Shown here: positions 6,048 to 17,634 of the stretch, in pieces
How the letters are laid out: the number at the start of each line of letters is the position of its first letter
Numbering within the stretch: the stretch's first letter is position 1
Source of the DNA: an uncultured Acidobacteriota bacterium
GTDB lineage: Bacteria > Acidobacteriota > UBA4820 > DSQY01
Length of the DNA: 64,000 bases
Direction of reading: 5' to 3'
NCBI GenBank assembly: GCA_963772255.1
Contig: CAVYWK010000022.1
Span: 242,525-306,524 of the forward strand
Translations under genes and position numbers: made by a program
The notes under the pieces: model-generated
The model's input: the letters and a program-made list of their open reading frames with translations, nothing else
The model's database searches: none
Told to the model about the DNA's origin: nothing

Positions 6048-6539
6048 CTAGCGCTTGCGGGCTCGGGACCTGGGAGCGAGGAGCGTGCCCCGGCATCGGG
6101 GTGTTCCGCAGTGACAGGGGTACCGCGCCTTCACGGCGCGGGTGTGGCGGCCCTCGAGGTCGAGGGCGTAATCGTAGGTCAGTTCCTCGCCCGGCAGAAT
6201 GTCCCTCAGGGCTTCGATGAAAATGCGCCCCGCGTCCTCCACGGCCTGGCAGGAGGGTTCGCACGAGTGGTTGATGAAGCGGGCCTCGTTGCCCCGCACG
6301 GCACCGTCGATGACCGTGCGGTCATCCACCGCGAACAGCACCACGTGGATCGCGTCTCCGGGGGTGTCTTCATGGCGCCGGGAGGCTTCTTCGTGGGTGA
6401 TCCGCTGCCCCATGTACTCGAGGATCCTGGTCCCTGAAGCCATGGGGCGACGGGCGAAGACCCCCGTTCCATGTATGGGGGAGGTTCGCACTTCCCACTT
6501 CGGCGCACGAATCGTGACCGCGCCTCCCGAACCCCTCAA
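6048..6539 (-). CDS. SET-domain protein-lysine methyltransferase with post-SET Cys cluster
   Basis: HGTGVFA, RFINHSCEP, EELTYDY and CHCGTPRCRG. TTG start overlaps the upstream stop (TTGA). Confidence 0.9.
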   Translation of the reverse strand: MRGSGGAVTIRAPKWEVRTSPIHGTGVFARRPMASGTRILEYMGQRITHEEASRRHEDTPGDAIHVVLFAVDDRTVIDGAVRGNEARFINHSCEPSCQAVEDAGRIFIEALRDILPGEELTYDYALDLEGRHTRAVKARYPCHCGTPRCRGTLLAPRSRARKR

Positions 6540-7336
6540 CCTTCCTCCCGCTCCGCGGCGGCGGCTTCCATTCTTCGGCTGAGGGCGCACCCGAGGAATA
6601 GGAAAAGCGCGGTGTAGACCGCCAGGAACACGAGCGCGGCGGTTCGGGATTCGCTGGCCGCGAGCATCTGCTCGATCACCCCTTGGGGAGCCGTGTTGTG
6701 GGGCAGGAGCGTGTGCAGGTGGAACAGGAGCGTGAGCCTCTTGAGGAAGCCCGGAAGCCACGCCACCAGGTTCTCCCAGCCGAACCCGATGATGAGGCCC
6801 CAGAATAGGGGCTTCTTCACGGCCAAACCGATAAAGGCGAAGAGGGCGCCGTAGGCCAACACGCCCAGCCCCGTGGTGGCCAAGTCTCCAAGGAGGGTCC
6901 CCATTTCCCGGCCCAGCGCTCCGGCGCCGTCGATGGAGAGGGACAAGAGATAGGTGCCCGCGATGCTCAGCCAGCTCCCCGCCACCAGCACCGCCACCAT
7001 GGCGGCGACCTTGGCCAGGTAGACCCTCTCGCGCCGCACGGGGCGGCCGAAGAGGTAGGGCAGGGTCCCGCCCTCCACCTCGTCGGCGATGAGCGAGGTC
7101 CCGAAGAAGAGCGTGGAGAGGGGGACCAGGAAGCCGGTGATGTAGGCCAGCACCAGGATGCCGTAGAGGGTCACGCCTCCCAGCGGCACCTGGACGCCCC
7201 GCCATATGAGCAGGCGGAGGAAGAGGGCCGCGGCCCAGGGCACCGCCAGGAGGAGCCCGAACAGCCAGCCCTTCACCGAGCGGGTCATACCCCGCGCCGT
7301 GAAACTGAAAATCGCCCGCACCGCGCCGTCGATCAT
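6536..7336 (-). CDS. ABC transporter permease (ABC-2 type)
   Basis: About 6 TM segments and SLIADEVEGGTLPYLFGRPVRR (EAA-like loop). Start overlaps the upstream ATPase stop. Confidence 0.85.
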   Translation of the reverse strand: MIDGAVRAIFSFTARGMTRSVKGWLFGLLLAVPWAAALFLRLLIWRGVQVPLGGVTLYGILVLAYITGFLVPLSTLFFGTSLIADEVEGGTLPYLFGRPVRRERVYLAKVAAMVAVLVAGSWLSIAGTYLLSLSIDGAGALGREMGTLLGDLATTGLGVLAYGALFAFIGLAVKKPLFWGLIIGFGWENLVAWLPGFLKRLTLLFHLHTLLPHNTAPQGVIEQMLAASESRTAALVFLAVYTALFLFLGCALSRRMEAAAAEREEG

Positions 7337-8250
7337 CACGCCACCAGGTAGGAAAAGACCGCCGACAGGTTGTCGTCGAGCGGGTTCAGGAGGTCCAAGC
7401 CCAGTTCGCGCTCGGCCATGAGGTCGCCCAGGCGCAGGCGGAAGTCGCCCATGTCCGTCACCTCGGCGGTGAGGATCTTGGCGTCCGCCCCGAAGGTCAC
7501 CGACTGCACGCAGGGCCAACCGATGAGCGATGCCGCCAGCGCGCGGGCGTCCGTGCAGCGCACGAACACGTGCATGGGCCTGGAGGCGATGGCCTGCCGA
7601 ACCTGCGGCACTTCGCCGGAGGCCAGAAGCTTGCCGTGGTGCAGGAGGAGGATGCGGCTGGTCATGGCCTCCACCTCGTGGAGCATGTGTGAGGACACCA
7701 GCACGCACTTGCCCTCTTCGCCCCAGCGGCGGATGGCCGCGATGGCCTGGGCCCGGCTGGGCGGATCCATACCGTTGAGGGGCTCGTCCAGCAGGAGCAC
7801 CGGCGGGTCGTGCACGAGGGCCTGGGCCATCTTCACTTTCTGGCGCATACCCTTGCTCATGGCCCGGACCTTTTTGCCCGCCTCCTCGCCCAGGGCCACT
7901 TCGTTGCAGGCGCTTCGGGCGCGGTCCCGGGCGTCGGCGGGGGAGAGACCGGATAGGCGACCCAGGTAGGCCACGAATTCGAGACCCGTGACATCCTCGT
8001 AGAAGTGGTCGGGGCTGGGGCAGTATCCCATCTGCTTGAGGGCGTCGGGGTTGGCGAAAAGGGCCTTGCCGTCCAGGTCCACCGTCCCCGAACTAGGCTG
8101 CAAGAGCCCCGCCATGAGGTTGAGGAGCGTGCTCTTGCCCGCCCCGTTGACGCCCAGCAGGCCGGTGACGCCGGGCTCGATGGTGAGGGAGATGCGGTTC
8201 ACACCCACCACCAGCCCATACCATTTTGAGACATTCTGGACACGGATCAT
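7336..8250 (-). CDS. ABC transporter ATP-binding protein
   Basis: GVNGAGKST, MSKGMRQK, LLLDEP and SSHML. Confidence 0.93.
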   Translation of the reverse strand: MIRVQNVSKWYGLVVGVNRISLTIEPGVTGLLGVNGAGKSTLLNLMAGLLQPSSGTVDLDGKALFANPDALKQMGYCPSPDHFYEDVTGLEFVAYLGRLSGLSPADARDRARSACNEVALGEEAGKKVRAMSKGMRQKVKMAQALVHDPPVLLLDEPLNGMDPPSRAQAIAAIRRWGEEGKCVLVSSHMLHEVEAMTSRILLLHHGKLLASGEVPQVRQAIASRPMHVFVRCTDARALAASLIGWPCVQSVTFGADAKILTAEVTDMGDFRLRLGDLMAERELGLDLLNPLDDNLSAVFSYLVA

Positions 8251-9125
8251 TGCAGCACCGCCCGGCGCGAGAACCGGACCACCAGCACCGCCACACTGGC
8301 GGCGGCCAGCCCGATGAAGTAAAGCGCCACGAGGGCCGGATGGAGGTCGGCTGAGGCGAAGGGTGCCGGCGCCCCAAGGCAGAGGTGCGCCAGTGCCGTG
8401 AGCTCCCGGGAGAGGGAGAAGAACCATACGGAGGTGACCTTGGTGATGGCGTAGACGATCCCGCAGGCGATGTCGCCGAAGAACACCAGCGCGATGAAGG
8501 CCAGGCCCACCACCCGCGGGGAGCGGGCCATGGAGGACAGGGCCAGCGTGAAGAGCACGATCACGCCTGGACCGATGGCCGTGTAGAGCAGGGTGCCCCA
8601 CAGGATCCGGGCGTGGGAGAAGAGCCAGGCGGCGTCCCCCGTGAGCCCCACCTGGAAGATCACCAGGACCAGCGTGGGCAGGAGGGAGAAGATGAGGAGG
8701 AACGCGCCGAGTGCTGTGCCCTTGGCCCACAGGTACTGGAAGGAGGAGACGGCCCGGCCCAGGAACACGTCCAGGGTCATGTCCTTGCGGTCCCTGGACA
8801 CGAGGCCGGACCCCACCCAGATGGACACGATGAACAGCAGGAAGAGGTCGTACCCGTTGGTGAGCAGCTTGGCCACGAGTTTCTCGTCCACCACGGGGAG
8901 CTGTTTGACCAGGTCCTTGGCCCAGTCCGCGTCCCCGAGCTGGGTATGGAGGAACGTGAGCGCCACGCCGTACATCCACGGAAGGAGGGCCACCACCAGC
9001 AGGAACACGAAGACCCTGCGACGGAAGTACGGCAGGATCTCCTCCCGGAAGAGCGGCCACCACCGGCGGTTCAGGGGGAGGCGGTCTCCCGTGTAGACTT
9101 CGTAGCCCTGCTCATAGACCGGCAT
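8247..9125 (-). CDS. ABC transporter permease
   Basis: About 6 TM segments and GSGLVSRDRK loop. Lies between two ABC ATPases with overlapping stops and starts. Confidence 0.85.
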   Translation of the reverse strand: MPVYEQGYEVYTGDRLPLNRRWWPLFREEILPYFRRRVFVFLLVVALLPWMYGVALTFLHTQLGDADWAKDLVKQLPVVDEKLVAKLLTNGYDLFLLFIVSIWVGSGLVSRDRKDMTLDVFLGRAVSSFQYLWAKGTALGAFLLIFSLLPTLVLVIFQVGLTGDAAWLFSHARILWGTLLYTAIGPGVIVLFTLALSSMARSPRVVGLAFIALVFFGDIACGIVYAITKVTSVWFFSLSRELTALAHLCLGAPAPFASADLHPALVALYFIGLAAASVAVLVVRFSRRAVLQ

Positions 9126-10050
9126 GGTTGTCCCCGTTTTTTTGCAGGGCCGAGAGGAAAAGTTCCTCCAGGGAGGTCTCCTCGCGGACGAATCGGTTCA
9201 CGGCCCCTCCCGCTTCGCGCGCCACGCGGAACACCGCCCTTGCGCTCTCGCCGGGCGGGAGCACCAGCTTGAAGAGGCCATCCTTCCTGGGCTCGACGGC
9301 CCAGCCCGCTCCGGCGCACGCGGCGGTGAACGCTTCGCCTGGGCCATCGCCCTCCCACTGGACCAGGAAGTGCTGAGCCTCGCTGTGCGTCCAGTCCTCC
9401 ACCGAGACGCCCGCCTGGACCTGGCCCCTGTGGAGGATTACCACCTGTTTGCAGAGCGTTTCCACATCTTTGAGGATGTGGGTGGAGAGGAGGACGGTCT
9501 TGCCCTGTCTCACGATGTCCTGGCATAGGGCCAGCATTTCTTCCCGCCCCACGGGATCCATGCCCGAGGTGGGCTCGTCCAACAGCAGGAGGGCCGGGTC
9601 GTGCACGAGGGCGGCGGCCAGCTTGAGGCGCTGGCGCATGCCCGTGGAGAAGGTCTCGGCATTGCGGTACCGGCTCTCCTCGAGGCCGACATACTGCAGG
9701 ACCTCGTGGGCGCGTTCCACGGCGGCCCGGCGCGGAAGTCCGGAGAGCTCGCCCAGAAGGGCAACCCACGCCACGCCGCTCAATCCCGGCCTCAGGCCCT
9801 CCCGCTCGGGCACGTAGCCCACGCGGTCGCGCAATGCGGGCCCCAGGGAGCCGCTGTCCTGCCCCATGAGGCTGAATCGGCCCGCGCTGAGGGGCACGAG
9901 CCCGAGAAGGGCCTTGATGAGCGTGGACTTTCCCGCCCCGTTGGGGCCGAGCAGCCCCACGGCGCCACCCTCGATGTCGAAGGTCACGCCCCTCAGGGCT
10001 TCGGTGGATCCATAGCGCACGCGGATGTCGTGGATCGACAAGACGCTCAT
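9112..10050 (-). CDS. ABC transporter ATP-binding protein
   Basis: GPNGAGKST, FSTGMRQR, LLLDEPT and STHIL. Confidence 0.93.
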   Translation of the reverse strand: MSVLSIHDIRVRYGSTEALRGVTFDIEGGAVGLLGPNGAGKSTLIKALLGLVPLSAGRFSLMGQDSGSLGPALRDRVGYVPEREGLRPGLSGVAWVALLGELSGLPRRAAVERAHEVLQYVGLEESRYRNAETFSTGMRQRLKLAAALVHDPALLLLDEPTSGMDPVGREEMLALCQDIVRQGKTVLLSTHILKDVETLCKQVVILHRGQVQAGVSVEDWTHSEAQHFLVQWEGDGPGEAFTAACAGAGWAVEPRKDGLFKLVLPPGESARAVFRVAREAGGAVNRFVREETSLEELFLSALQKNGDNHAGL

Positions 10051-11681
10051 GCCGTTCCTCTACGCCGCGTGGAAGGGGAAGGTTTCATCCCGCGCTCCTC
10101 CTTGCTCCCCGGACCAGGCCCCAGCAAGCGCCGCACGGACCCCCGGTCGAACTTTTTCCACAGGCCCGAGAGCCGCGCCCGGCGCTCGCCTGCGATCTCC
10201 CGCTGGACCTGGATGAGTCCGCCCATATCGAGGAGGGCCTGAAGGGGAAGATCGCCCCTGGCGGCCATTTCGCGGGCCAGGAGTTCCACCCGCGCCGCTG
10301 CCACGACCGCGTCCTGGTGCTCTCCGAGACAGTCCTGAAACTTCACCATGGCCTCAAGGAGAGGATCGAGGCGCTTCCCAAGGGCCGGGGCGAAGAACTC
10401 GCTGGCATAGCGCAGCCGCTTGAAGAGGATGCGGAGCCGGTGCAGGGCCGCAGGCGTGGAGACCGCCTCCGGGCCGGCTCCGGAGACGGGTACGGAAACC
10501 CGGCCCTGTTTCACCACGCGCCGGTAAGCCTGCCTCAGAAAGAGCGGTCCCGCCGTATCGGCCCGCTGCGCCGAAAGACCCCGCGGCCATTGGGGTGGAG
10601 CGGAGCTAGCCAGCGCGTGAAGCCGCGCCATGAGGTTCGCAAACCGCTTCCCCTCCATGGCGCTCACCAGGGTCTCCCGGGCGGGTCCACGCCGGACCCA
10701 CAGCTCGGCCTCCAGGGCCATGGCCACGCGGGCCGCTTCGCCCAACCGCCCAGATTGGCCCCTGAGTCCCTCGATGAAGACATCCAGGTCCCGAACCTCG
10801 CCCAGCAAGCCTGCGAGCCAACCCAGCTCCAGGCGAAGCGATTCGGCGCGTTTCGGACCCAGCGCCGGCCCCAGGAGGTTGAGAGCTGATCGCGCCCTGC
10901 GGGTGGCGACCCGCAGGTCGTGGAGGTATTCCGGATCCAGGTCCAGGAGCGTTCCTTCGATATTGGCGCGCATCTTCAGGACCTGTCCGACCAGCACCTT
11001 CCTCGCCGCCAGCGCCAGCGGGTCCTCCGGGCGAACCCTGTTGGCCTCGGGGGCTTGGCCTCCGGGTTCGGGACGCCCGAGGGCCTCCAGCGCCAGGCCA
11101 CACGCATCCAGGGATGTGGGGACCAGGCCCAGGCGGTCTCGAAGGTACACCGCGAGGTAATCCGCTTCACCCGGGGCACCCTCCACCAGGCGCGCCGTGA
11201 GCAGGGTCCCCCTCATGGACTGCGTTGTTGGGGTGAACGGGGGGACGGCGGCGCGCAGGGTTTCGCAACAGAGATCGATGCGTCCGCCACCCGGGGCGGT
11301 TAAGGCCGCCTCCGTCCAAGTCAGCCTGAGCGTCAAAACCGGAAAAAGGGGCCTGGCCCCCGCGAGTGCAGCCGCCGATTCTGGAAGACCCGCGCCCTCC
11401 GAAGGTAACGGCCACGGCCCTTGTGCCATGCGGTAGGGCGCCTCCACCACGGAGCCCTCCGCCGGGTCGAAGCGAAAGAGCCAGGAGCCCGCCCTCGCCC
11501 GCAGCCTGAGGCGTGACCCGGCTCGCGCGAACCGGCCGTCCTGTGTGTCGAGAAACCGGTCCGCCACGACCGCCGCGGGGCCGCGCTCCACACCGTATCC
11601 CGCCCGGGACAGGGCCCCGAGAACTCCCTTCGGGGTCCGCCCGCTCGGGACTAAGAATCGGACCACGACCACGGCGTCCAC
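10047..11681 (-). CDS. CYTH-like + CHAD domain protein (polyphosphate-binding)
   Basis: CHAD motifs LHDLRVATRRARS, LGEVRDLDV, LHRLRILFKRLRY and QDCLGEHQD. N-terminus has DT..RLRLR typical of CYTH. Start may be GTG 11672. Confidence 0.88.
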   Translation of the reverse strand: MDAVVVVRFLVPSGRTPKGVLGALSRAGYGVERGPAAVVADRFLDTQDGRFARAGSRLRLRARAGSWLFRFDPAEGSVVEAPYRMAQGPWPLPSEGAGLPESAAALAGARPLFPVLTLRLTWTEAALTAPGGGRIDLCCETLRAAVPPFTPTTQSMRGTLLTARLVEGAPGEADYLAVYLRDRLGLVPTSLDACGLALEALGRPEPGGQAPEANRVRPEDPLALAARKVLVGQVLKMRANIEGTLLDLDPEYLHDLRVATRRARSALNLLGPALGPKRAESLRLELGWLAGLLGEVRDLDVFIEGLRGQSGRLGEAARVAMALEAELWVRRGPARETLVSAMEGKRFANLMARLHALASSAPPQWPRGLSAQRADTAGPLFLRQAYRRVVKQGRVSVPVSGAGPEAVSTPAALHRLRILFKRLRYASEFFAPALGKRLDPLLEAMVKFQDCLGEHQDAVVAAARVELLAREMAARGDLPLQALLDMGGLIQVQREIAGERRARLSGLWKKFDRGSVRRLLGPGPGSKEERGMKPSPSTRRRGTA

Positions 11682-11713
11682 TCCTTCAGTTCCCGGCCTT
11701 CAACGCTTCGTCC

Positions 11714-12499
11714 TCACCGGCGCACGCCGCGGACCAAGTCCGCAGGCATGGCTCTCGGAACCTTGCGCGTCTTGAGGTCGGCCACCACCGATTCCACGGG
11801 GTAGGAGAACCGTACGATCCGCGCCCGCGGATGCGCGCCTTCGCGCAGGTCCACGAGAGCATAGGAGCCTCGCGGGTCCCCGTCCACCGGCCGCCCCACC
11901 GAACCGCTGTTGACCACCAGGACCCCCGCCACGGTGCGGACGAAGGGGATGTGCGAATGGCCGCATGCCAGGAGCGCGGGTCGCTCCACGCCGAGCTTCC
12001 CCAAAAGGGCCGGCTCGGTGATGCTGGGAAAGATGTAGTCCGTGTCCGCCAGGGGACTCCCGTGGACCACCAGGATGTCCGCTCCACCCGCGGAGAACCG
12101 AAGCGACCCGGGGAGCGCGGCCATCCAGGCCAGCTCGGCGGGTCCCAGAACCTTGGCCGTCCAGGCCAGAGGGGCCCGCTTCCTGTGGCGACTGGCGCGC
12201 CGGAGCCGCTTGGGGGCGGACGCCAGGGCGCAGACCTTCCGGTCTACATTGCCGGCCAACGTGGGGAGCCGCTGCTCCATGAGGAGCCGAATGACCTCTG
12301 TGGGGTGGGGGCCTCCGCCCACCAGGTCCCCCGCGCACAACACCCGATCGGCACCGGCCGCGGAGGCATGCTCCAGGGCCACGCACAGGGCGGGAAAATT
12401 GGCGTGGATGTCCGATAGAAAGGCAATTTTCATGGGTTCTTTCGGCGGGGCGAGGTGCTCGGTCTCTACATCTCCCGCTCCCCCGCTCGACCCCCTCAC
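11714..12499 (-). CDS. Calcineurin-like metallophosphoesterase
   Basis: SDIHAN, GDLVG, GNVD, HGSP, GHSH and NSGSVG. ATG 12499 overlaps the upstream stop; alternative ATG 12433. Confidence 0.9.
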   Translation of the reverse strand: MRGSSGGAGDVETEHLAPPKEPMKIAFLSDIHANFPALCVALEHASAAGADRVLCAGDLVGGGPHPTEVIRLLMEQRLPTLAGNVDRKVCALASAPKRLRRASRHRKRAPLAWTAKVLGPAELAWMAALPGSLRFSAGGADILVVHGSPLADTDYIFPSITEPALLGKLGVERPALLACGHSHIPFVRTVAGVLVVNSGSVGRPVDGDPRGSYALVDLREGAHPRARIVRFSYPVESVVADLKTRKVPRAMPADLVRGVRR

Positions 12500-12987
12500 C
12501 TGCCCGGCGGCATCTTGCTGGCCAGGACCATGAGGAGGAGTTCGATTCGGGCCAGGTCCTTGACCCGCCCCTTCTTGGGCTTGACCTTGAGCCCGCCGAA
12601 AGCCGCGGCCATGGCCGTCAGAGTCCGGGCGCTCGGCAGGAGCGCCTTTTCGCCGGGAAGGCTGTCCCCGTCCAAGAAGAGGGCGAGGGACGCGGCCTCG
12701 CCGTCCAGGCGGTCCACCACTCCGGACCCCACCTCTTTAAGGACGGACCGAACCTTGGAGAGTTCCACGGCCACCTGCCGTCCCAGCTCTTGGCGGGAAA
12801 CCTTGGGCGTCTTGCCCAGCGCTTTGGCCTTTTTCTTCGCAGGGGCCTTCCTCTTGGGAGTCTTGCCGCGGACCTTGTTTCCCTGGGTGGCGGGGGATTT
12901 CTTCTCGCGTTTTTCGGGCGGGGCCGTGCCGGCTCCGGCGGATTCCGCGGTGATACTAGCCTCTGGCGTCATGAATGATGACCTCAA
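12496..12987 (-). CDS. Hypothetical Lys/Arg-rich basic protein
   Basis: Coupled at both ends (TTGA, ATGA). Contains EKREKK..KTPKRKAPAKKKAKALGKTPK and KVKPKKGRVKD. Confidence 0.7.
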   Translation of the reverse strand: MRSSFMTPEASITAESAGAGTAPPEKREKKSPATQGNKVRGKTPKRKAPAKKKAKALGKTPKVSRQELGRQVAVELSKVRSVLKEVGSGVVDRLDGEAASLALFLDGDSLPGEKALLPSARTLTAMAAAFGGLKVKPKKGRVKDLARIELLLMVLASKMPPGR

Positions 12988-13685
12988 CCTTTCTCTCTGC
13001 GTGCCAAAACCTGCTGGACGCGGCCCTTAAGGTCGGCATCGAGGGCCGGGATCGTCCGGTTGGCATTCACCACCTCGAAACCGTATCGCTTCTGCATTCT
13101 AACAAATTCCTGGCGGATTTTCCGCTGGTACCTCAAGAAACTTCCGAACCAGTCTCTCCCCAGCCCGCAGTCCATACCCGACTCCCAGTAGTCCAGCTCG
13201 GCGTGGGTCTGAAACGTCCTGTCCACGAGGGTTTTCGAGGAGACCATGAGGTAGAACACGGCCTCCGGCACGGGTGCCATGGCGTAAATCGACTCCACCC
13301 ACTCGGGCTCGGCGCCGCGGACGATGTCGCGCGCCATGAGCGTGTAGATGTAGCGGTCCGCCAGGACCACGAATCCCGCTCTCAGGGCCGGCACGATCTG
13401 GTTTTCGAGTTGGTCGTAGAAGTCCGTGGCATAAAAGAGACTCAGTGTCCTGGGGCTGAGAATGTTCCCTTGCTTGGCCTTCTCGAGCTCCGCCGCCACC
13501 AGGTTCGAGCGCTTGAGCCCCACCTGGGCCACGGCGTGACCCTGCTCCTCGAGCCACTGGCGCAGGAGACCGATGTGCGTGGACCGTCCGGAGGAGTCGG
13601 GACCCTCTAGGACGATGAGTGTCCCGGTGAGTTTGCCGGCGTCCACGCCCGGGGGGGCGATGTGGTAAAAGCGCTGGGGGCTCAT
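12984..13685 (-). CDS. Thymidylate-kinase-fold protein with degenerate P-loop (candidate regulatory PPK3-type subunit)
   Basis: LEGPDSSGRST (Walker A Lys->Arg) and LADRY. Paralogous to the upstream gene; ATGA overlap. Confidence 0.8.
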   Translation of the reverse strand: MSPQRFYHIAPPGVDAGKLTGTLIVLEGPDSSGRSTHIGLLRQWLEEQGHAVAQVGLKRSNLVAAELEKAKQGNILSPRTLSLFYATDFYDQLENQIVPALRAGFVVLADRYIYTLMARDIVRGAEPEWVESIYAMAPVPEAVFYLMVSSKTLVDRTFQTHAELDYWESGMDCGLGRDWFGSFLRYQRKIRQEFVRMQKRYGFEVVNANRTIPALDADLKGRVQQVLARREKG

Positions 13686-14365
13686 TGGGCAAACCTCTTG
13701 TGAAAGAGGGCCAGGTCGATGCGCTCTTGGATGAGTTGGCGCACGCGTGTCTGCTGGGCATGCACCGAGAGCGTCGCGTCCAAGACCGTAAACCCAAACT
13801 CCTCCACCATGCTCATATATTGGTCCAGGACCCTTCCCTGGAAAATCCTGAAGCTCTCCGTGATGTCTGGGCTCAACCCCAGGTCCATGCCGGCCTCGAA
13901 GTACTTGAGCTGGGGGCGCCCCTCCAGGATGCGGCCCAGGGCCACCTCCAGCGGCAGCCTGAAGAAGAAGGTGATGTCCGGGATCCTCGCGAACCCGTAC
14001 ATCTTCCGAAGCCACGCCTCGTCACAGCCTCTCGTGGCGTCTCGGGCGAAGGAGGTGAAAATGTACCGGTCGCACAGGACGATGTAGCCTGCCCTCAGGA
14101 GAGGGAGCATCTGCCGCTCGTACCGGTCGGCAAAATCCGTGGCGTGGATGAGGCTGAAGGTCGTGGGGGTCAGGAGCTGACGTTTCTTGCCCTTCTTGGT
14201 GGCTTCCCGCACCAGGGAAGAGCTGTTCCACTCCGTGAAAAAGACGCGGTACCCCTTGCTTTTGAGCCACTGGTGAACCAGGTGGATCTGCGTCGATTTG
14301 CCCGATCCGTCCAGGCCCTCCACGGCGATGAGCTTGCCCGGGAGCTTCTCGTCTCTCGGCCTCAC
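13682..14365 (-). CDS. Thymidylate-kinase-fold protein with intact P-loop (candidate catalytic PPK3-type polyphosphate kinase subunit)
   Basis: VEGLDGSGKST and LCDRY, but FTEWNS in place of the TMK REPG motif. GTGA overlap with the ppx stop. Confidence 0.8.
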   Translation of the reverse strand: MRPRDEKLPGKLIAVEGLDGSGKSTQIHLVHQWLKSKGYRVFFTEWNSSSLVREATKKGKKRQLLTPTTFSLIHATDFADRYERQMLPLLRAGYIVLCDRYIFTSFARDATRGCDEAWLRKMYGFARIPDITFFFRLPLEVALGRILEGRPQLKYFEAGMDLGLSPDITESFRIFQGRVLDQYMSMVEEFGFTVLDATLSVHAQQTRVRQLIQERIDLALFHKRFAQ

Positions 14366-15981
14366 GGTTTTCCCCCTTTTCTCCGCCCGCTGGTTGAGAC
14401 CTCCACCGACAGGCCGTAGGTCTTTTTTAGGAGATCGGACTTCCGCTTGAGCGCCCAACCCTCAAGGAGAAGATCCCCGTCTCCGTCGAGGGTGAGTTTC
14501 AGAGTATGTCCCACCGTTCTGGCCAAGACCCCGGAAACCTTCTGACGATGCTCCCGGTCTAGGGCGTCCGCGAGTCGCAGAAGGGCGGCCAGCTTGCTGG
14601 CCACCGCTCGCCCTTGAGGGTCCAGGGCCGAGTAGGACTCGTGTTCCAACTTGGGCATGTTACGCCGATGGTACCGGGCCACATTGGCGGCCAATTGGAC
14701 CTCCCGGGGGGCGAACCCGGCGAGGTCGGCGTGGGCGATGAGGTAGAGGCTGTGCTTGTGGTGGCGGCTGTAGCTCACGAAGGTTCCGATGTCATGGAGG
14801 AGCGCCGCCGCGTGCAGGACGGCACGCTCTCCATCTCCCATCTGGTGAAGGGGCCGGAGTTGATCGAAGAGACTCAGGGCCAGGCGCGCCACATGAATCC
14901 CGTGGGCCTCGTCGAACCGGTATTTGCGCCCGATGGCGACAGCCGCCTGGTGAACCTGCTGCTCCCTCTTCCCCGAGGACGGAAGACCCGTTCCTTGGTG
15001 GTCCGCCATGTCGAGAACGATTCCCTCACGGACCCCTACAAAGGGCACGGTGATCTCCTTGAGTCCGGAAAGGCGGGCCAGTCGCTCGTACACGATGGCC
15101 GCCGGAAGGATGACGTCGGCCCGGTCCTCCCTCAGGCCCAACTGGGTGACGCGCTCGTGGTAGCTCAAGCGAGCAAGTTGCCGGATGAGTCGAGACAGCG
15201 TGCTCACGGGCACTCTCGACACGCCGTCCGGGTCCGGGACCGCCATGGCCATCTGGGCGAGGGTCTCCATGTTTCCCCCCGTGGCGACGAACCCCACAGG
15301 GCTCTGGCCCACCAATCCCGCGGGAATCCGGAGCGTCTCGGCGTATTCCTGCAGCAGCCTGAGAACACCCTGGGGATCCGCCGACCCGCCCGCCAGTTCT
15401 TCCAGGAGACGAACCGATCCCATGGTGTGGGATTCACTCCACAAGACGCCCGTTTGGTCGGCGAGGGAAACCTCCACGCTGCCCCCGCCCAGGTCCGCCA
15501 TCATCCAGACGTCCGAGCCGAGTTCCAGGCGGCTCGCGACCGCCCGGCAGACGAGCCGGGCCTCTTCCGATCCGCTGATGATCTCCAGGTCCATGCCCGA
15601 TGCCCGCCGGACGCGGGCGAGGAAGCTCTTCCCGTTGGAACTCTCCCGCAGGGCGCTGGTGGCTACCGCCCGGTGCCGCGTGACCCCCAGTTCCCGCATG
15701 ATGCCGGCGTATTCTTTCAAGACCTTCACCGCGGCCGTCATCACGCCCGGGGACAGCCTGCCGCTCACAAAAACGCCGTGTCCCAGGCGCACGGGACTCC
15801 TGTCGGCCCGGATCACGGTATAGCTCTGGGGAGAGGAGAACTCGGCCACGAGGAGGCGTATCGCGTTGGAACCCACATCCACGGCAGCGGCGCGAAGGGG
15901 AAACGCGCGGTGAGGCCCCGGGTTCTTCCTGGGTTTCGTGGGGCGGCGCACCGCGTTGACTTTCTCACCCATCTTGGCCAC
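14362..15981 (-). CDS. ppx: Exopolyphosphatase / pppGpp 5'-phosphohydrolase (Ppx/GppA with HD domain)
   Basis: DVGSNAIRL, SGSEEARL, DLGGGSVEV, LLHDIG and RLADALD. Confidence 0.95.
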   Translation of the reverse strand: MAKMGEKVNAVRRPTKPRKNPGPHRAFPLRAAAVDVGSNAIRLLVAEFSSPQSYTVIRADRSPVRLGHGVFVSGRLSPGVMTAAVKVLKEYAGIMRELGVTRHRAVATSALRESSNGKSFLARVRRASGMDLEIISGSEEARLVCRAVASRLELGSDVWMMADLGGGSVEVSLADQTGVLWSESHTMGSVRLLEELAGGSADPQGVLRLLQEYAETLRIPAGLVGQSPVGFVATGGNMETLAQMAMAVPDPDGVSRVPVSTLSRLIRQLARLSYHERVTQLGLREDRADVILPAAIVYERLARLSGLKEITVPFVGVREGIVLDMADHQGTGLPSSGKREQQVHQAAVAIGRKYRFDEAHGIHVARLALSLFDQLRPLHQMGDGERAVLHAAALLHDIGTFVSYSRHHKHSLYLIAHADLAGFAPREVQLAANVARYHRRNMPKLEHESYSALDPQGRAVASKLAALLRLADALDREHRQKVSGVLARTVGHTLKLTLDGDGDLLLEGWALKRKSDLLKKTYGLSVEVSTSGRRKGGKP

Positions 15982-16001
15982 CCCCCTCGCGGGTGTCTTT
16001 C

Positions 16002-16030
16002 AGTATAGCCCGCCAGAGTGCTGGACGCAA
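16002..16030 (-). promoter_or_regulatory. Putative sigma70 promoter of the ppx operon
   Basis: Minus strand TTGCGT-17 nt-TATACT, about 20 bp upstream of the GTG. Confidence 0.6.
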
Positions 16031-16230
16031 AAAGGGACCTGCTTTGTTATCCCAGGCCCCCCTTCCTGGGGCGGCCCTAACTTGATCTGCGGTCTCCCTG
16101 GAGGGGAGCTTCCAGGGTCATCATCGGGGGGCTCGAGAGCAGTTGGCCGCCCCCTGCCTTCCGCTGGGTCTCGGGGGTGAAAAGCTGGCGCGAGGTGCAC
16201 TCTTGGAGACTCCTTCGGCGTGGTCCATTA

Positions 16231-16280
16231 TGGTATACTCGGTGGGTCAGGAGAGGGCCCTTTTCCACATCTGTGGAAAT
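16231..16280 (+). promoter_or_regulatory. dnaA promoter (extended -10) with two downstream DnaA boxes
   Basis: TGG-TATACT at 16231-16239. Inverted boxes TTTTCCACA (16261-69) and TGTGGAAAT (16272-80) fit autoregulation. Confidence 0.6.
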
Positions 16281-16293
16281 ACCTGTGAAAAAC

Positions 16294-17634
16294 ATGCCGG
16301 CTGATCTTTGGTCAAAGGTACTGAAATCGGTGAAAGGACGGGTCCCGGAGGGGACCTACAACACGTGGTTTGCTCCCCTGAAACCCGTCCAGGTTTCCGG
16401 GTGCCAGATCCGCGCCGTGGCACCCAATCCCCTGTTTATCGAATGGATCGAAAAGCACTACGCAGGGCTTTTTGGAGAGGTGGGGAGGGACCTGAACCTG
16501 CCGGACCTCATGGTCGAACTCCTGGAGGCGCCCCCGGAGGACCTTATCCTCGCACCCCCCGCATCGGGCAAGCCCAAGGAAAGCAAGGCCTCAGCGAAGA
16601 AATCTTCGGATGTCCCCGACCTCGGATTCAACCCCCTCTACCGTTTTGAGGCTTTCGTGGAGGGTCCCTCGAACCGGTTTGCCTACGCCGCATGCAAGGC
16701 AGTCGCGCAGAGTCCCTCGAAGGCCTATAACCCTCTTTATGTCTACGGGGGGGTCGGGCTGGGGAAAACCCACCTCATGCAGTCCATCGGCCATTTCATC
16801 CGGGACAACTTTCCCGCGCTCAAGGTCTCCTATCTGTCGGCTGAGCGCTTCATGAACGAGATGATCAGCGCCATCGGAAACAAATCTACGCCGGACTTCA
16901 GGAACAGGTACCGCCAGATGGATGTCCTTCTCCTGGATGACGTGCAATTTTTGGCCAACAAGACGGGCACGCAGGAGGAGATCTTTCATACCTTCAACGC
17001 GCTCCACGAGGCCCGCAAACAGATCGTCATCAGCAGCGACTGTCCTCCCCGTGATCTCCAGAGTATCGAGGAGCGTCTTCGGTCCCGGTTCGAGTGGGGC
17101 CTCATTGCCGATATTCAGCCCCCCGAACTTGAGACCAAGGTGGCGATCCTCTACAAGAAAGCAGAGGCCTATCACGTCAAGCTTCCCGAAGACGTGGCCC
17201 TCTTTGTTGCCAGTCGCATCAAGACCAACATCCGCGAGTTGGAAGGCTGTTTGGTACGCCTCATCGCCATGTCGTCATTCAGGGACCTGCCCATCAATCT
17301 CGACCTTGCCCATGAAACCCTCCACACCCTCTTTCGGGAGGATGGGCGATCGGTGACGGCCGAGGGGATTCAAAAGCAAGTCGCGGCCTATTTCAGAATG
17401 AAGGTTCAGGATCTGAAATCTACCAGCCACAAGGCTCAGGTGGTTCTTCCCCGGCAGGTCGCCATGTACCTCTGCAAAGAACTCACGGGGGCATCACTCC
17501 CCGAAATAGGCCGGAAGTTCGGCGGAAAGCACCACACCACCGTTCTTCACTCCATCCGAAAGGTGGAGCAGAAAATGGCCTCCGATCCGCAGTTTCAACA
17601 GCAGATCCACACCTTTATGCGTTCGTTTTGTTGA
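16294..17634 (+). CDS. dnaA: Chromosomal replication initiator
   Basis: YNTWF, NPLYVYGGVGLGKTHL, LLDDVQF, SRFEWGL, NIRELEG and domain IV HHTTVLHS. Confidence 0.98.
   Translation: MPADLWSKVLKSVKGRVPEGTYNTWFAPLKPVQVSGCQIRAVAPNPLFIEWIEKHYAGLFGEVGRDLNLPDLMVELLEAPPEDLILAPPASGKPKESKASAKKSSDVPDLGFNPLYRFEAFVEGPSNRFAYAACKAVAQSPSKAYNPLYVYGGVGLGKTHLMQSIGHFIRDNFPALKVSYLSAERFMNEMISAIGNKSTPDFRNRYRQMDVLLLDDVQFLANKTGTQEEIFHTFNALHEARKQIVISSDCPPRDLQSIEERLRSRFEWGLIADIQPPELETKVAILYKKAEAYHVKLPEDVALFVASRIKTNIRELEGCLVRLIAMSSFRDLPINLDLAHETLHTLFREDGRSVTAEGIQKQVAAYFRMKVQDLKSTSHKAQVVLPRQVAMYLCKELTGASLPEIGRKFGGKHHTTVLHSIRKVEQKMASDPQFQQQIHTFMRSFC

What the first reader, a model, noticed from the sequence alone, without database searches (positions are those of the whole stretch)
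12984..14365. Tandem TMK-fold pair directly after ppx: candidate bacterial heteromeric PPK3-type polyphosphate kinase
Seen: two paralogues coupled to ppx. The first has an intact Walker A (GLDGSGKST) and the second a degenerate one (GPDSSGRST). Neither has the TMK REPG motif. Recalled literature, not verified here: in Sulfolobus acidocaldarius two TMK-annotated genes downstream of ppx form a heteromeric polyP kinase (PPK3) with a catalytic and a regulatory subunit. Inference: the same catalytic + pseudo-kinase system in a bacterium, which automated pipelines would mislabel as dTMP kinases.
Basis: partly seen in the sequence, partly recalled or inferred. Interest (0 to 1): 0.88.

Follow-up and report, generated by a model that had tools for sequence, protein, structure and literature searches.

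The report
Bacterial PPK3-type polyphosphate kinase pair
Two genes that look like thymidylate kinase genes, joined directly to an exopolyphosphatase gene, are a bacterial copy of the two-subunit polyphosphate kinase PPK3 described in Sulfolobus in 2026; that paper already predicted bacterial copies, so this is a well-supported example of a known kind.

Summary
On the minus strand, ppx (14362-15981), TMK-like 1 (13682-14365, Walker A GLDGSGKST) and TMK-like 2 (12984-13685, GPDSSGRST) are joined by 4-nt GTGA and ATGA overlaps. Neither has the REPG dTMP motif. A canonical tmk with STREPGGS lies on another contig.

Protein 1 matches the S. tokodaii cPPK3 homologue (PDB 2plr/5h70) at E 9e-60, against about 1e-15 for true TMKs. 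A tree splits PPK3 (C+R) from canonical TMKs with 100% support. Protein 2 is the regulatory-type paralogue.

Enzyme activity and the complex are inferred. The kind is not new: Höfmann et al. (JBC 2026, PMC12995831) already describe a mainly bacterial PPK3 clade with c+r pairs next to ppx and CHAD genes.

Modest additions:
- At least 502 species in at least 17 named phyla carry the pair.
- Bacterial-type R subunits keep the DRX arginine that Sulfolobales rPPK3 has lost. Their constant lesion is Walker A Lys to Arg.
- PPK1 is absent from the whole order, while PPK2 coexists with PPK3.
- An uncharacterised small basic protein follows R in 16 of 80 loci.

The parts
14362..15981 (-). ppx: Ppx/GppA-family exopolyphosphatase with an HD-type domain III
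   Evidence: PF02541 4.6e-47 and PF21447 7.8e-31. TIGR03706 scores 217 bits, below its cut-off. Its stop overlaps the next gene's start (GTGA).
13682..14365 (-). cPPK3-type catalytic subunit (P0001, 227 aa). Walker A GLDGSGKST at 14291-14317, TEWNSS in place of REPG, DRY at 14063-14071.
   Evidence: E 9e-60 to PDB 2plr/5h70 against about 1e-15 for TMKs. Falls in the C clade. Carries every basic residue that is conserved only in C: K61, R81, R84, R150, K154.
12984..13685 (-). rPPK3-type partner subunit (P0002, 233 aa). Walker A GPDSSGRST (Lys->Arg) at 13578-13604. DRY is retained at 13350-13358.
   Evidence: 38% identical to P0001. Falls in the R group. AF2 model has pLDDT 83; its best PDB match is 5h70, TM 0.82/0.92, rmsd 1.9 A. 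ATGA overlap with P0001.
12496..12987 (-). Small basic protein: a disordered Lys-rich N-tail plus a ~100-aa helical domain with the motif LKVKPKKGRVKDLARIE. Possible accessory of bacterial PPK3 operons.
   Evidence: TTGA overlap with rPPK3 and GTGA overlap with the next gene. A homologue lies directly after R in 16 of 80 loci from at least 9 named phyla. No Pfam or NCBIfam hit. Four-helix model, pLDDT 73, no PDB match. 87 representative clusters.
11714..12499 (-). YfcE-like metallophosphoesterase
   Evidence: PF12850 2.4e-24. TIGR00040 scores 49.9 bits. PDB 3rqz at 2e-16. The same gene order occurs in L069, Thermoanaerobaculaceae.
10047..11681 (-). CHAD-domain protein (polyP-granule-binding family) with a weak CYTH-like N-terminal region
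   Evidence: PF05235 3.8e-53. PDB CHAD 6qv7 at 2.7e-17. CYTH reaches only E 0.043.

Best explanation
The two genes encode the two subunits of a family-3 (thymidylate-kinase-fold) polyphosphate kinase. They are co-translated with an exopolyphosphatase and sit in one operon with a CHAD protein.

P0001 is the catalytic subunit. It has an intact P-loop lysine, the DRY clamp arginine, lid Arg/Lys residues and a set of extra conserved basic residues that would hold polyP where a TMK holds dTMP. It should catalyse polyP(n) + ADP <-> polyP(n-1) + ATP.

P0002 is the non-catalytic partner. Its P-loop lysine is arginine and the C-specific basic residues are gone, but the fold and most nucleotide-site residues are kept. 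By analogy with Saci_2020 it should oligomerise with P0001 (alpha2beta2) and raise its activity.

Shown here: homology, motif states, gene coupling, a separate tmk, and lack of PPK1 in the lineage. Inferred: the activity, the complex, and the direction of flux in vivo.
For: - P0001 matches the cPPK3 homologue STK_15430 (2plr/5h70) at E 9e-60 over its full length, against 1e-15 or weaker for TMKs. P0002 matches it at 5.6e-35.
- The tree splits C+R from canonical TMKs at 100% SH-aLRT. Window C and window R fall in matching 5-row clades (99% each), so the pair is inherited as a unit.
- C is followed by R in 77 of 77 loci. ppx lies within 6 kb in 38 of 80.
- Motifs match expectation. C has GxDGSGK[ST], TEWNSS and DRY. 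R has GxxxxGR[ST]. The canonical TMK has REPGG.
- Basic residues are conserved in C only, as PMC12995831 reports for the polyP cleft.
- A canonical tmk scores 149 bits on contig 23.
- PPK1 is absent in all 24 sampled genomes of the class, 23 of them in the window's order.
- 4-nt start/stop overlaps link ppx, C, R and the small protein.
- A CHAD protein is in the operon.
- SaPPK3 biochemistry and the prediction of bacterial operons are in PMC12995831.
Against: - I found no paper reporting an assay of a bacterial PPK3.
- The window's R keeps the DRX arginine, which is replaced in the characterised rPPK3. Its inactivity is therefore less certain.
- The genome also has a two-domain PPK2 and a one-domain PPK2, so PPK3 is not its only polyP kinase. 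The paper says most PPK3 carriers lack PPK2.
- The AU test does not reject a separate origin of the Sulfolobales C/R pair (p 0.48). Transferring the 'regulatory' role from Saci_2020 therefore rests on shared substitutions, not on a resolved tree.
- The genome is a MAG, 86% complete.
Confidence: 0.8

Rival explanations
1. The bacterial-type R subunit is not an inert scaffold. It binds nucleotide, acting as an ATP/ADP sensor that sets the direction of the reaction, or it keeps weak kinase activity. In that case the bacterial enzyme works differently from SaPPK3.
For: All 73 bacterial R sequences and 8 bacterial-type archaeal R sequences keep DRY, the lid arginine (R156) and a basic residue (Arg) at the Walker A position. 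Only the Sulfolobales-type R has DGY. It is established knowledge that P-loop Lys->Arg mutants often still bind nucleotide. The R model closely matches ADP-bound 5h70.
Against: Walker A Lys->Arg usually abolishes phosphotransfer. The C-specific basic residues (R81, R84, R150, K154) are lost in R, so it has no obvious polyP site. There are no binding data.
Confidence: 0.25
2. The pair is a P-loop kinase for another acceptor, for example a nucleotide or an alarmone handled by the Ppx/GppA neighbour, and polyP is not its substrate.
For: The neighbour belongs to the Ppx/GppA family and scores below the 'exopolyphosphatase only' cut-off. About half of the related loci, mostly Verrucomicrobiota, have no ppx within 6 kb.
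Against: P0001 is about 50% identical to the archaeal cPPK3 type, whose S. acidocaldarius member has measured polyP kinase activity. The residues conserved between them include the C-specific basic set. CHAD, a polyP-granule protein family, is in the operon.
Confidence: 0.05
3. Both genes are ordinary, redundant dTMP kinases, as the databases annotate them.
For: Both hit PF02223. P0001 scores 87.4 bits against the TIGR00041 cut-off of 83.25. Sources name the homologues 'dTMP kinase'.
Against: The dTMP-binding REPG segment is replaced in both. A canonical tmk exists elsewhere (149 bits). A long, 100%-supported branch separates the pair from TMKs. Saci_2019 and Saci_2020 showed no dTMPK activity (PMC12995831).
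Confidence: 0.03

Closest known systems
SaPPK3 of Sulfolobus acidocaldarius (Saci_2019 cPPK3 + Saci_2020 rPPK3; PMC12995831); structure of the cPPK3 homologue STK_15430 (PDB 2plr/5h70)
   Same: The gene order is the same (ppx, then c, then r) and a CHAD protein is in the operon. Both proteins have the TMK fold. C keeps the P-loop Lys, DRY and a conserved basic set. R lacks that basic set. A separate canonical dTMPK exists. P0001 is about 49% identical to STK_15430.
   Different: The window's R keeps the DRX arginine (DRY), where Sulfolobales R has DGY. There is no SixA gene here. Instead the operon has a small basic protein and a YfcE-like phosphoesterase. The host also has PPK2 enzymes. It is a bacterium, probably a mesophile, and nothing has been assayed.
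Predicted bacterial PPK3 operons (Figs 5 and S19 of PMC12995831)
   Same: This is exactly that class: dTMPK paralogue pairs beside ppx or CHAD in bacteria that carry a canonical dTMPK elsewhere.
   Different: The abstract speaks of 'a few bacteria'. Within the window's phylum, 61 of 401 sampled species carry it. I could not check whether this lineage is in the paper's data set, because its supplementary tables are not held.
Canonical thymidylate kinase (TIGR00041 / PF02223)
   Same: The fold, the P-loop, the DRX motif and the lid are shared. P0001 even passes the equivalog cut-off.
   Different: The dTMP-binding REPG segment is lost, extra basic residues are present, and the pair forms a separate clade.
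Two-domain class II PPK2 (inactive N-domain plus active C-domain)
   Same: The logic is the same: one active P-loop kinase module paired with a degenerate paralogous module. The paper draws this analogy. Such a PPK2 also exists in this genome (contig 1, 244870-246307).
   Different: It is a different family: neither protein hits PF03976. PPK2 fuses the two modules into one chain, whereas here they are two chains. Note that the 'PPK3' of Ruegeria pomeroyi in the biocatalysis literature is a PPK2-I enzyme and is unrelated to this family.

Membership tests
PPK3 (TMK-fold heteromeric polyphosphate kinase, PMC12995831) | Both proteins fall in the clade of dTMPK paralogues that is separate from canonical dTMPKs and contains cPPK3 and rPPK3 | tested here: met
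   The split between C+R and TMK has 100% SH-aLRT on a 102-row IQ-TREE tree. P0001 matches 2plr/5h70 at 9e-60 and P0002 at 5.6e-35, against 1e-15 and 2e-8 for the best TMKs.
PPK3 (TMK-fold heteromeric polyphosphate kinase, PMC12995831) | Adjacent c and r genes in one operon | tested here: met
   ATGA overlap in the window. C is followed by R in 77 of 77 loci not cut by a contig end.
PPK3 (TMK-fold heteromeric polyphosphate kinase, PMC12995831) | The dTMP-binding residues of dTMPK are not conserved | tested here: met
   REPG is replaced by TEWNSS in C and GLKRS in R. The genome's own TMK has STREPGGS.
PPK3 (TMK-fold heteromeric polyphosphate kinase, PMC12995831) | Positively charged (polyP) residues are conserved in c but not in r | tested here: met
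   K61, R81, R84, R150 and K154 are basic in at least 90% of 81 C sequences and in under 50% of 78 R sequences. P0001 has all of them and P0002 has none. I did not check that they line the cleft in three dimensions.
PPK3 (TMK-fold heteromeric polyphosphate kinase, PMC12995831) | The catalytic arginine of the DRX motif is replaced in rPPK3 | tested here: not met
   P0002 has DRY, as do all 73 bacterial R sequences and the 8 bacterial-type archaeal R sequences. Only the Sulfolobales-type R has DGY. This is a feature of the characterised rPPK3, not of the family as the paper delimits it by phylogeny.
PPK3 (TMK-fold heteromeric polyphosphate kinase, PMC12995831) | A canonical dTMPK is encoded elsewhere in the genome | tested here: met
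   G000 contig 23, 47359-47934, scores 149.4 bits on PF02223.
PPK3 (TMK-fold heteromeric polyphosphate kinase, PMC12995831) | The genomic neighbourhood holds polyP genes (PPX, CHAD and others) | tested here: met
   ppx lies directly upstream, and a CHAD protein lies three genes downstream of rPPK3.
PPK3 (TMK-fold heteromeric polyphosphate kinase, PMC12995831) | Reversible polyP:ADP phosphotransfer, activated by the r subunit in an alpha2beta2 complex | not testable with these tools
   This needs enzymology and SEC. No multimer prediction tool was available.
Canonical dTMP kinase (NCBIfam TIGR00041, equivalog) | Score above the curated cut-off (83.25 bits) | tested here: inconclusive
   P0001 scores 87.4 and passes. 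P0002 scores 67.6 and fails. The pass explains the database label but conflicts with the motif and tree evidence.
Canonical dTMP kinase (NCBIfam TIGR00041, equivalog) | The dTMP-binding R-E-P-G segment after the P-loop helix | tested here: not met
PPK2 (PF03976) | A match to the PPK2 profile | tested here: not met
   Neither protein hits PF03976 at E <= 0.01. The genome's real PPK2 genes score 161-283 bits elsewhere.

The most novel reading that the evidence does not exclude
Bacterial-type PPK3 may be a distinct variant of the Sulfolobus enzyme. Its partner subunit keeps the DRX and lid arginines and has only Walker A Lys->Arg, so it could be a nucleotide-binding sensor that couples the direction of polyP synthesis or use to energy charge. 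In many lineages it may work with a third, uncharacterised small basic protein (motif KPxKGRxKD) encoded right after it. Under this reading, PPK3 rather than PPK1 would be the polyP synthase of large PPK1-less bacterial groups, including much of Verrucomicrobiota and part of the window's phylum.
Probability: 0.25. Interest if true: 0.6.

Novelty: new member of a known kind. Interest (0 to 1): 0.35.

Why it matters
I found no report of a bacterial PPK3 that has been assayed. The family is common in environmental bacteria: at least 502 species genomes, and 15% of sampled species in this phylum. It is systematically labelled dTMP kinase, so polyP metabolism in PPK1-less soil and water bacteria is being misread in genome surveys. 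Because the bacterial partner subunit keeps the DRX arginine, the published explanation for why rPPK3 is inactive may not carry over to it. A mesophilic bacterial PPK3 would also be a candidate ATP-regeneration enzyme. As a discovery, however, this repeats a prediction already in print.

Tried and rejected
- **AU test of R orthology.** I tested whether the Sulfolobales C and R could form their own clade, meaning an independent duplication. This was not rejected (p 0.48, delta lnL 2.0). Orthology of R across domains therefore rests on shared substitutions (G56, Y85 and Q92 in all R sequences, D165 and N95 in most) and on higher phmmer scores to P0002 than to P0001.
- **'Walker A K->R is universal in rPPK3.'** I rejected this after widening the archaeal sample. 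Four Sulfolobales-type R sequences have Lys (L127, L128, L129, L132).
- **Small basic protein.** Pfam at E <= 10, NCBIfam and a PDB fold search gave nothing significant.
- **CYTH domain in the CHAD protein.** The hit reaches only E 0.043, so I do not claim it.
- **Naming the organism.** Cluster look-ups returned no names. Named near relatives are labelled Acidobacteriota, NC10 or Methylomirabilis. The nearest named loci in the tree are Holophagales and Thermoanaerobaculaceae. The phylum is probably Acidobacteriota, but this is not settled.
- **Promoter scan.** It found no sigma-70-type site in 9800-16400.
- **Supplementary tables of the JBC paper.** They are not held, so I could not check whether this lineage is already listed.

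Full report
**What is there.** The minus strand of 10047-15981 carries six tightly packed genes:
- a Ppx/GppA exopolyphosphatase (14362-15981; PF02541 4.6e-47 plus domain III)
- TMK-like P0001 (13682-14365)
- TMK-like P0002 (12984-13685)
- a 163-aa Lys-rich protein (12496-12987)
- a YfcE-like metallophosphoesterase (11714-12499)
- a CHAD-domain protein (10047-11681; PF05235 3.8e-53)

Four junctions are 4-nt start/stop overlaps: ppx/P0001 (GTGA), P0001/P0002 (ATGA), P0002/small protein (TTGA) and small protein/phosphoesterase (GTGA). Only the last junction has a gap, 32 nt. dnaA lies divergently upstream.

**The observation.** GLDGSGKST is at 14291-14317 and GPDSSGRST at 13578-13604. The two proteins are 38% identical (E 1e-53), and both hit the thymidylate kinase Pfam family. 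Where TMKs bind dTMP, P0001 reads FTEWNSS and P0002 reads QVGLKRS. The genome's canonical TMK reads STREPGGS.

**Which family.**
- Against the PDB, P0001 matches S. tokodaii STK_15430 (2plr/5h70) at E 9e-60 over its full length. True TMKs reach 1e-15 at best. P0002 also matches STK_15430 best, at 5.6e-35.
- STK_15430 is the homologue of Saci_2019, the catalytic subunit of the heteromeric polyphosphate kinase SaPPK3 (Höfmann et al., JBC 2026, PMC12995831).
- I built a 102-row tree from C and R proteins of 45 loci plus 12 canonical TMKs from the window's phylum. It separates C+R from TMKs with 100% SH-aLRT on a long branch. The R proteins form one side of a branch (support 84).
- Window C and window R sit in matching 5-row clades (99% each) with Holophagales, Thermoanaerobaculaceae, Goldiibacteriota and Longimicrobiales loci. 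The pair therefore evolves as a unit.
- An AF2 model of P0002 (pLDDT 83) superposes best on ADP-bound 5h70 (TM 0.82/0.92, rmsd 1.9 A). Canonical TMKs follow at a TM-score (query-normalised) of about 0.7.

- A canonical tmk exists on contig 23 (149 bits).
- Neither protein hits the PPK2 profile.
- The genome has real PPK2 genes elsewhere: a two-domain gene and a one-domain gene.
- No PPK1 was found. That absence is a property of the lineage, not an assembly gap. None of the 24 sampled genomes of the class (23 in the window's order) has PPK1, including genomes 97-100% complete, while 3 of 7 more distant members of the phylum do.
- Within the family, the genera that lack PPK3 also lack PPK2.

**Comparative anatomy.**
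The 80 kept loci comprise 5 Sulfolobales and 75 bacteria from at least 17 named phyla. Verrucomicrobiota and Acidobacteriota dominate.
- C is followed by R in all 77 loci not cut by a contig end. ppx lies within 6 kb in 38 of 80.
- In the window's phylum, 61 of 401 sampled species carry the pair. In Thermoproteota, 18 of 301 do.
- All C proteins have G[LIV]DGSGK[ST], TEWNSS and DRY.
- All 73 bacterial R proteins have GxxxxGR[ST] and keep DRY. So do 8 archaeal R proteins of a 'bacterial-type' group, probably the Nitrososphaeraceae of the paper, though that assignment is inferred.
- The Sulfolobales-type R proteins have DGY. Their Walker A residue is Arg in 11 cases and Lys in 4.
- Several basic residues are conserved in C only: K61, R81, R84, R150 and K154. 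P0001 has all of them and P0002 none. This matches the paper's statement that a positively charged polyP cleft is conserved in cPPK3 but not in rPPK3.

**Mechanism.** The best reading is a reversible polyP:ADP phosphotransferase. P0001 is the catalyst and P0002 is a co-translated partner that activates it through oligomerisation, as shown for SaPPK3 (alpha2beta2, about 10-fold activation). Only homology, motifs and context are shown here. The activity, the complex and the physiological direction are inferred.

There is a real difference from the characterised enzyme. The paper attributes rPPK3 inactivity to loss of the DRX arginine, and the window's R, like all bacterial-type R proteins, keeps that arginine. 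Its visible lesions are Walker A Lys->Arg and the lost basic residues. P0002 may therefore still bind nucleotide. That is the main rival, or refinement, of the scaffold reading.

The AU test does not exclude that the Sulfolobales pair arose by its own duplication (p 0.48). Substitutions shared by R proteins of both domains (G56, Y85 and Q92 in all; D165 and N95 in most) argue against that.

**Novelty.** The kind is known. PMC12995831 already states three things:
- The PPK3 clade consists mainly of bacterial dTMPK paralogues.
- The carrier genomes have a canonical dTMPK elsewhere.
- Predicted operons contain ppx or CHAD and always both c and r.

I found no paper reporting an assay of a bacterial member. 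This window is a new member of a known kind. The modest additions are:
- the breadth in bacteria, compared with 'a few bacteria' in the abstract
- the DRX-retaining bacterial R type
- coexistence with PPK2
- the mechanics of the misannotation: P0001 scores 87.4 bits against the TIGR00041 equivalog cut-off of 83.25, and NCBIfam release 20 has no PPK3 model; sources call both proteins dTMP kinase

**The small basic protein.**
- An iterated profile finds its ~105-aa helical domain directly after R, on the same strand, in 16 of 80 loci from at least 9 named phyla. The motif is L+VKPxKGRxKDLxRI(D/E). In several loci it lies between R and ppx or CHAD.
- It has no Pfam or NCBIfam family.
- It has 87 representative clusters in a 1.8-billion-protein library.
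- Its model has a disordered basic tail and four helices (pLDDT 73), with no PDB match.
- It is not among the PPK3 neighbours named in the paper.
- It may be an accessory of bacterial PPK3 operons, for example a polyP- or complex-binding protein. This is unproven.

Noticed in passing
window 12496-12987 (-); also L014, L017, L018, L021, L022, L026, L029, L030, L031, L032, L041, L043, L056, L060, L069, L079: A small protein has a Lys/Arg-rich disordered N-tail and a conserved ~105-aa four-helix domain (motif VKPxKGRxKDLxRI). It is encoded directly after rPPK3 in 16 of 80 PPK3 loci from at least 9 named phyla. It has no Pfam, NCBIfam or PDB relative, and the PPK3 paper does not list it as a neighbour.
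   Followed up: partly
L127, L128, L129, L132 (Sulfolobales-type loci): Four Sulfolobales-type R subunits keep the Walker A lysine (GxxxSGKTT) while lacking the DRX arginine (DGY). The two lesions of R subunits are therefore distributed differently. Bacterial-type R has Arg in the P-loop plus DRY. Sulfolobales-type R has DGY with either Lys or Arg in the P-loop.
   Followed up: partly
G000 contig 1, 244870-246307, and contig 23, 93050-93754; relatives G001-G030: PPK2 and PPK3 co-occur in the window's family. Four of the five sampled genomes without PPK3 (genera g2 and g6) also lack PPK2 and PPK1, so they have no recognisable polyP kinase. The fifth, G011 in genus g3, keeps PPK2. PPK1 is absent from all 24 sampled genomes of the class.
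   Followed up: partly
P0001 against NCBIfam TIGR00041: P0001 scores 87.4 bits, just above the 83.25-bit equivalog cut-off for dTMP kinase. NCBIfam release 20 has no PPK3 model. This explains the systematic 'dTMP kinase' label on cPPK3 proteins in NCBI and JGI records.
   Followed up: yes
G231 (same phylum), contigs 5 and 51: One genome of the phylum carries two separate C-R pairs (four matches).
   Followed up: no
window 6048-10050 (-): Downstream of the CHAD gene, the same strand continues with ABC-transporter ATPase and permease genes (ORFs at 9112-10050 and 8247-9125). According to another first-stage note there is also a SET-domain gene. I did not examine whether they belong to the polyP operon.
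   Followed up: no
window 15982-16176: The polyP operon is divergent from dnaA (16177-17634), which is followed by dnaN and recF. The locus is therefore next to the likely replication origin.
   Followed up: no
literature (PMC12525235): There is a name collision. 'PPK3' in the biocatalysis literature is a one-domain PPK2-I enzyme of Ruegeria pomeroyi and is unrelated to the TMK-fold PPK3 family.
   Followed up: yes
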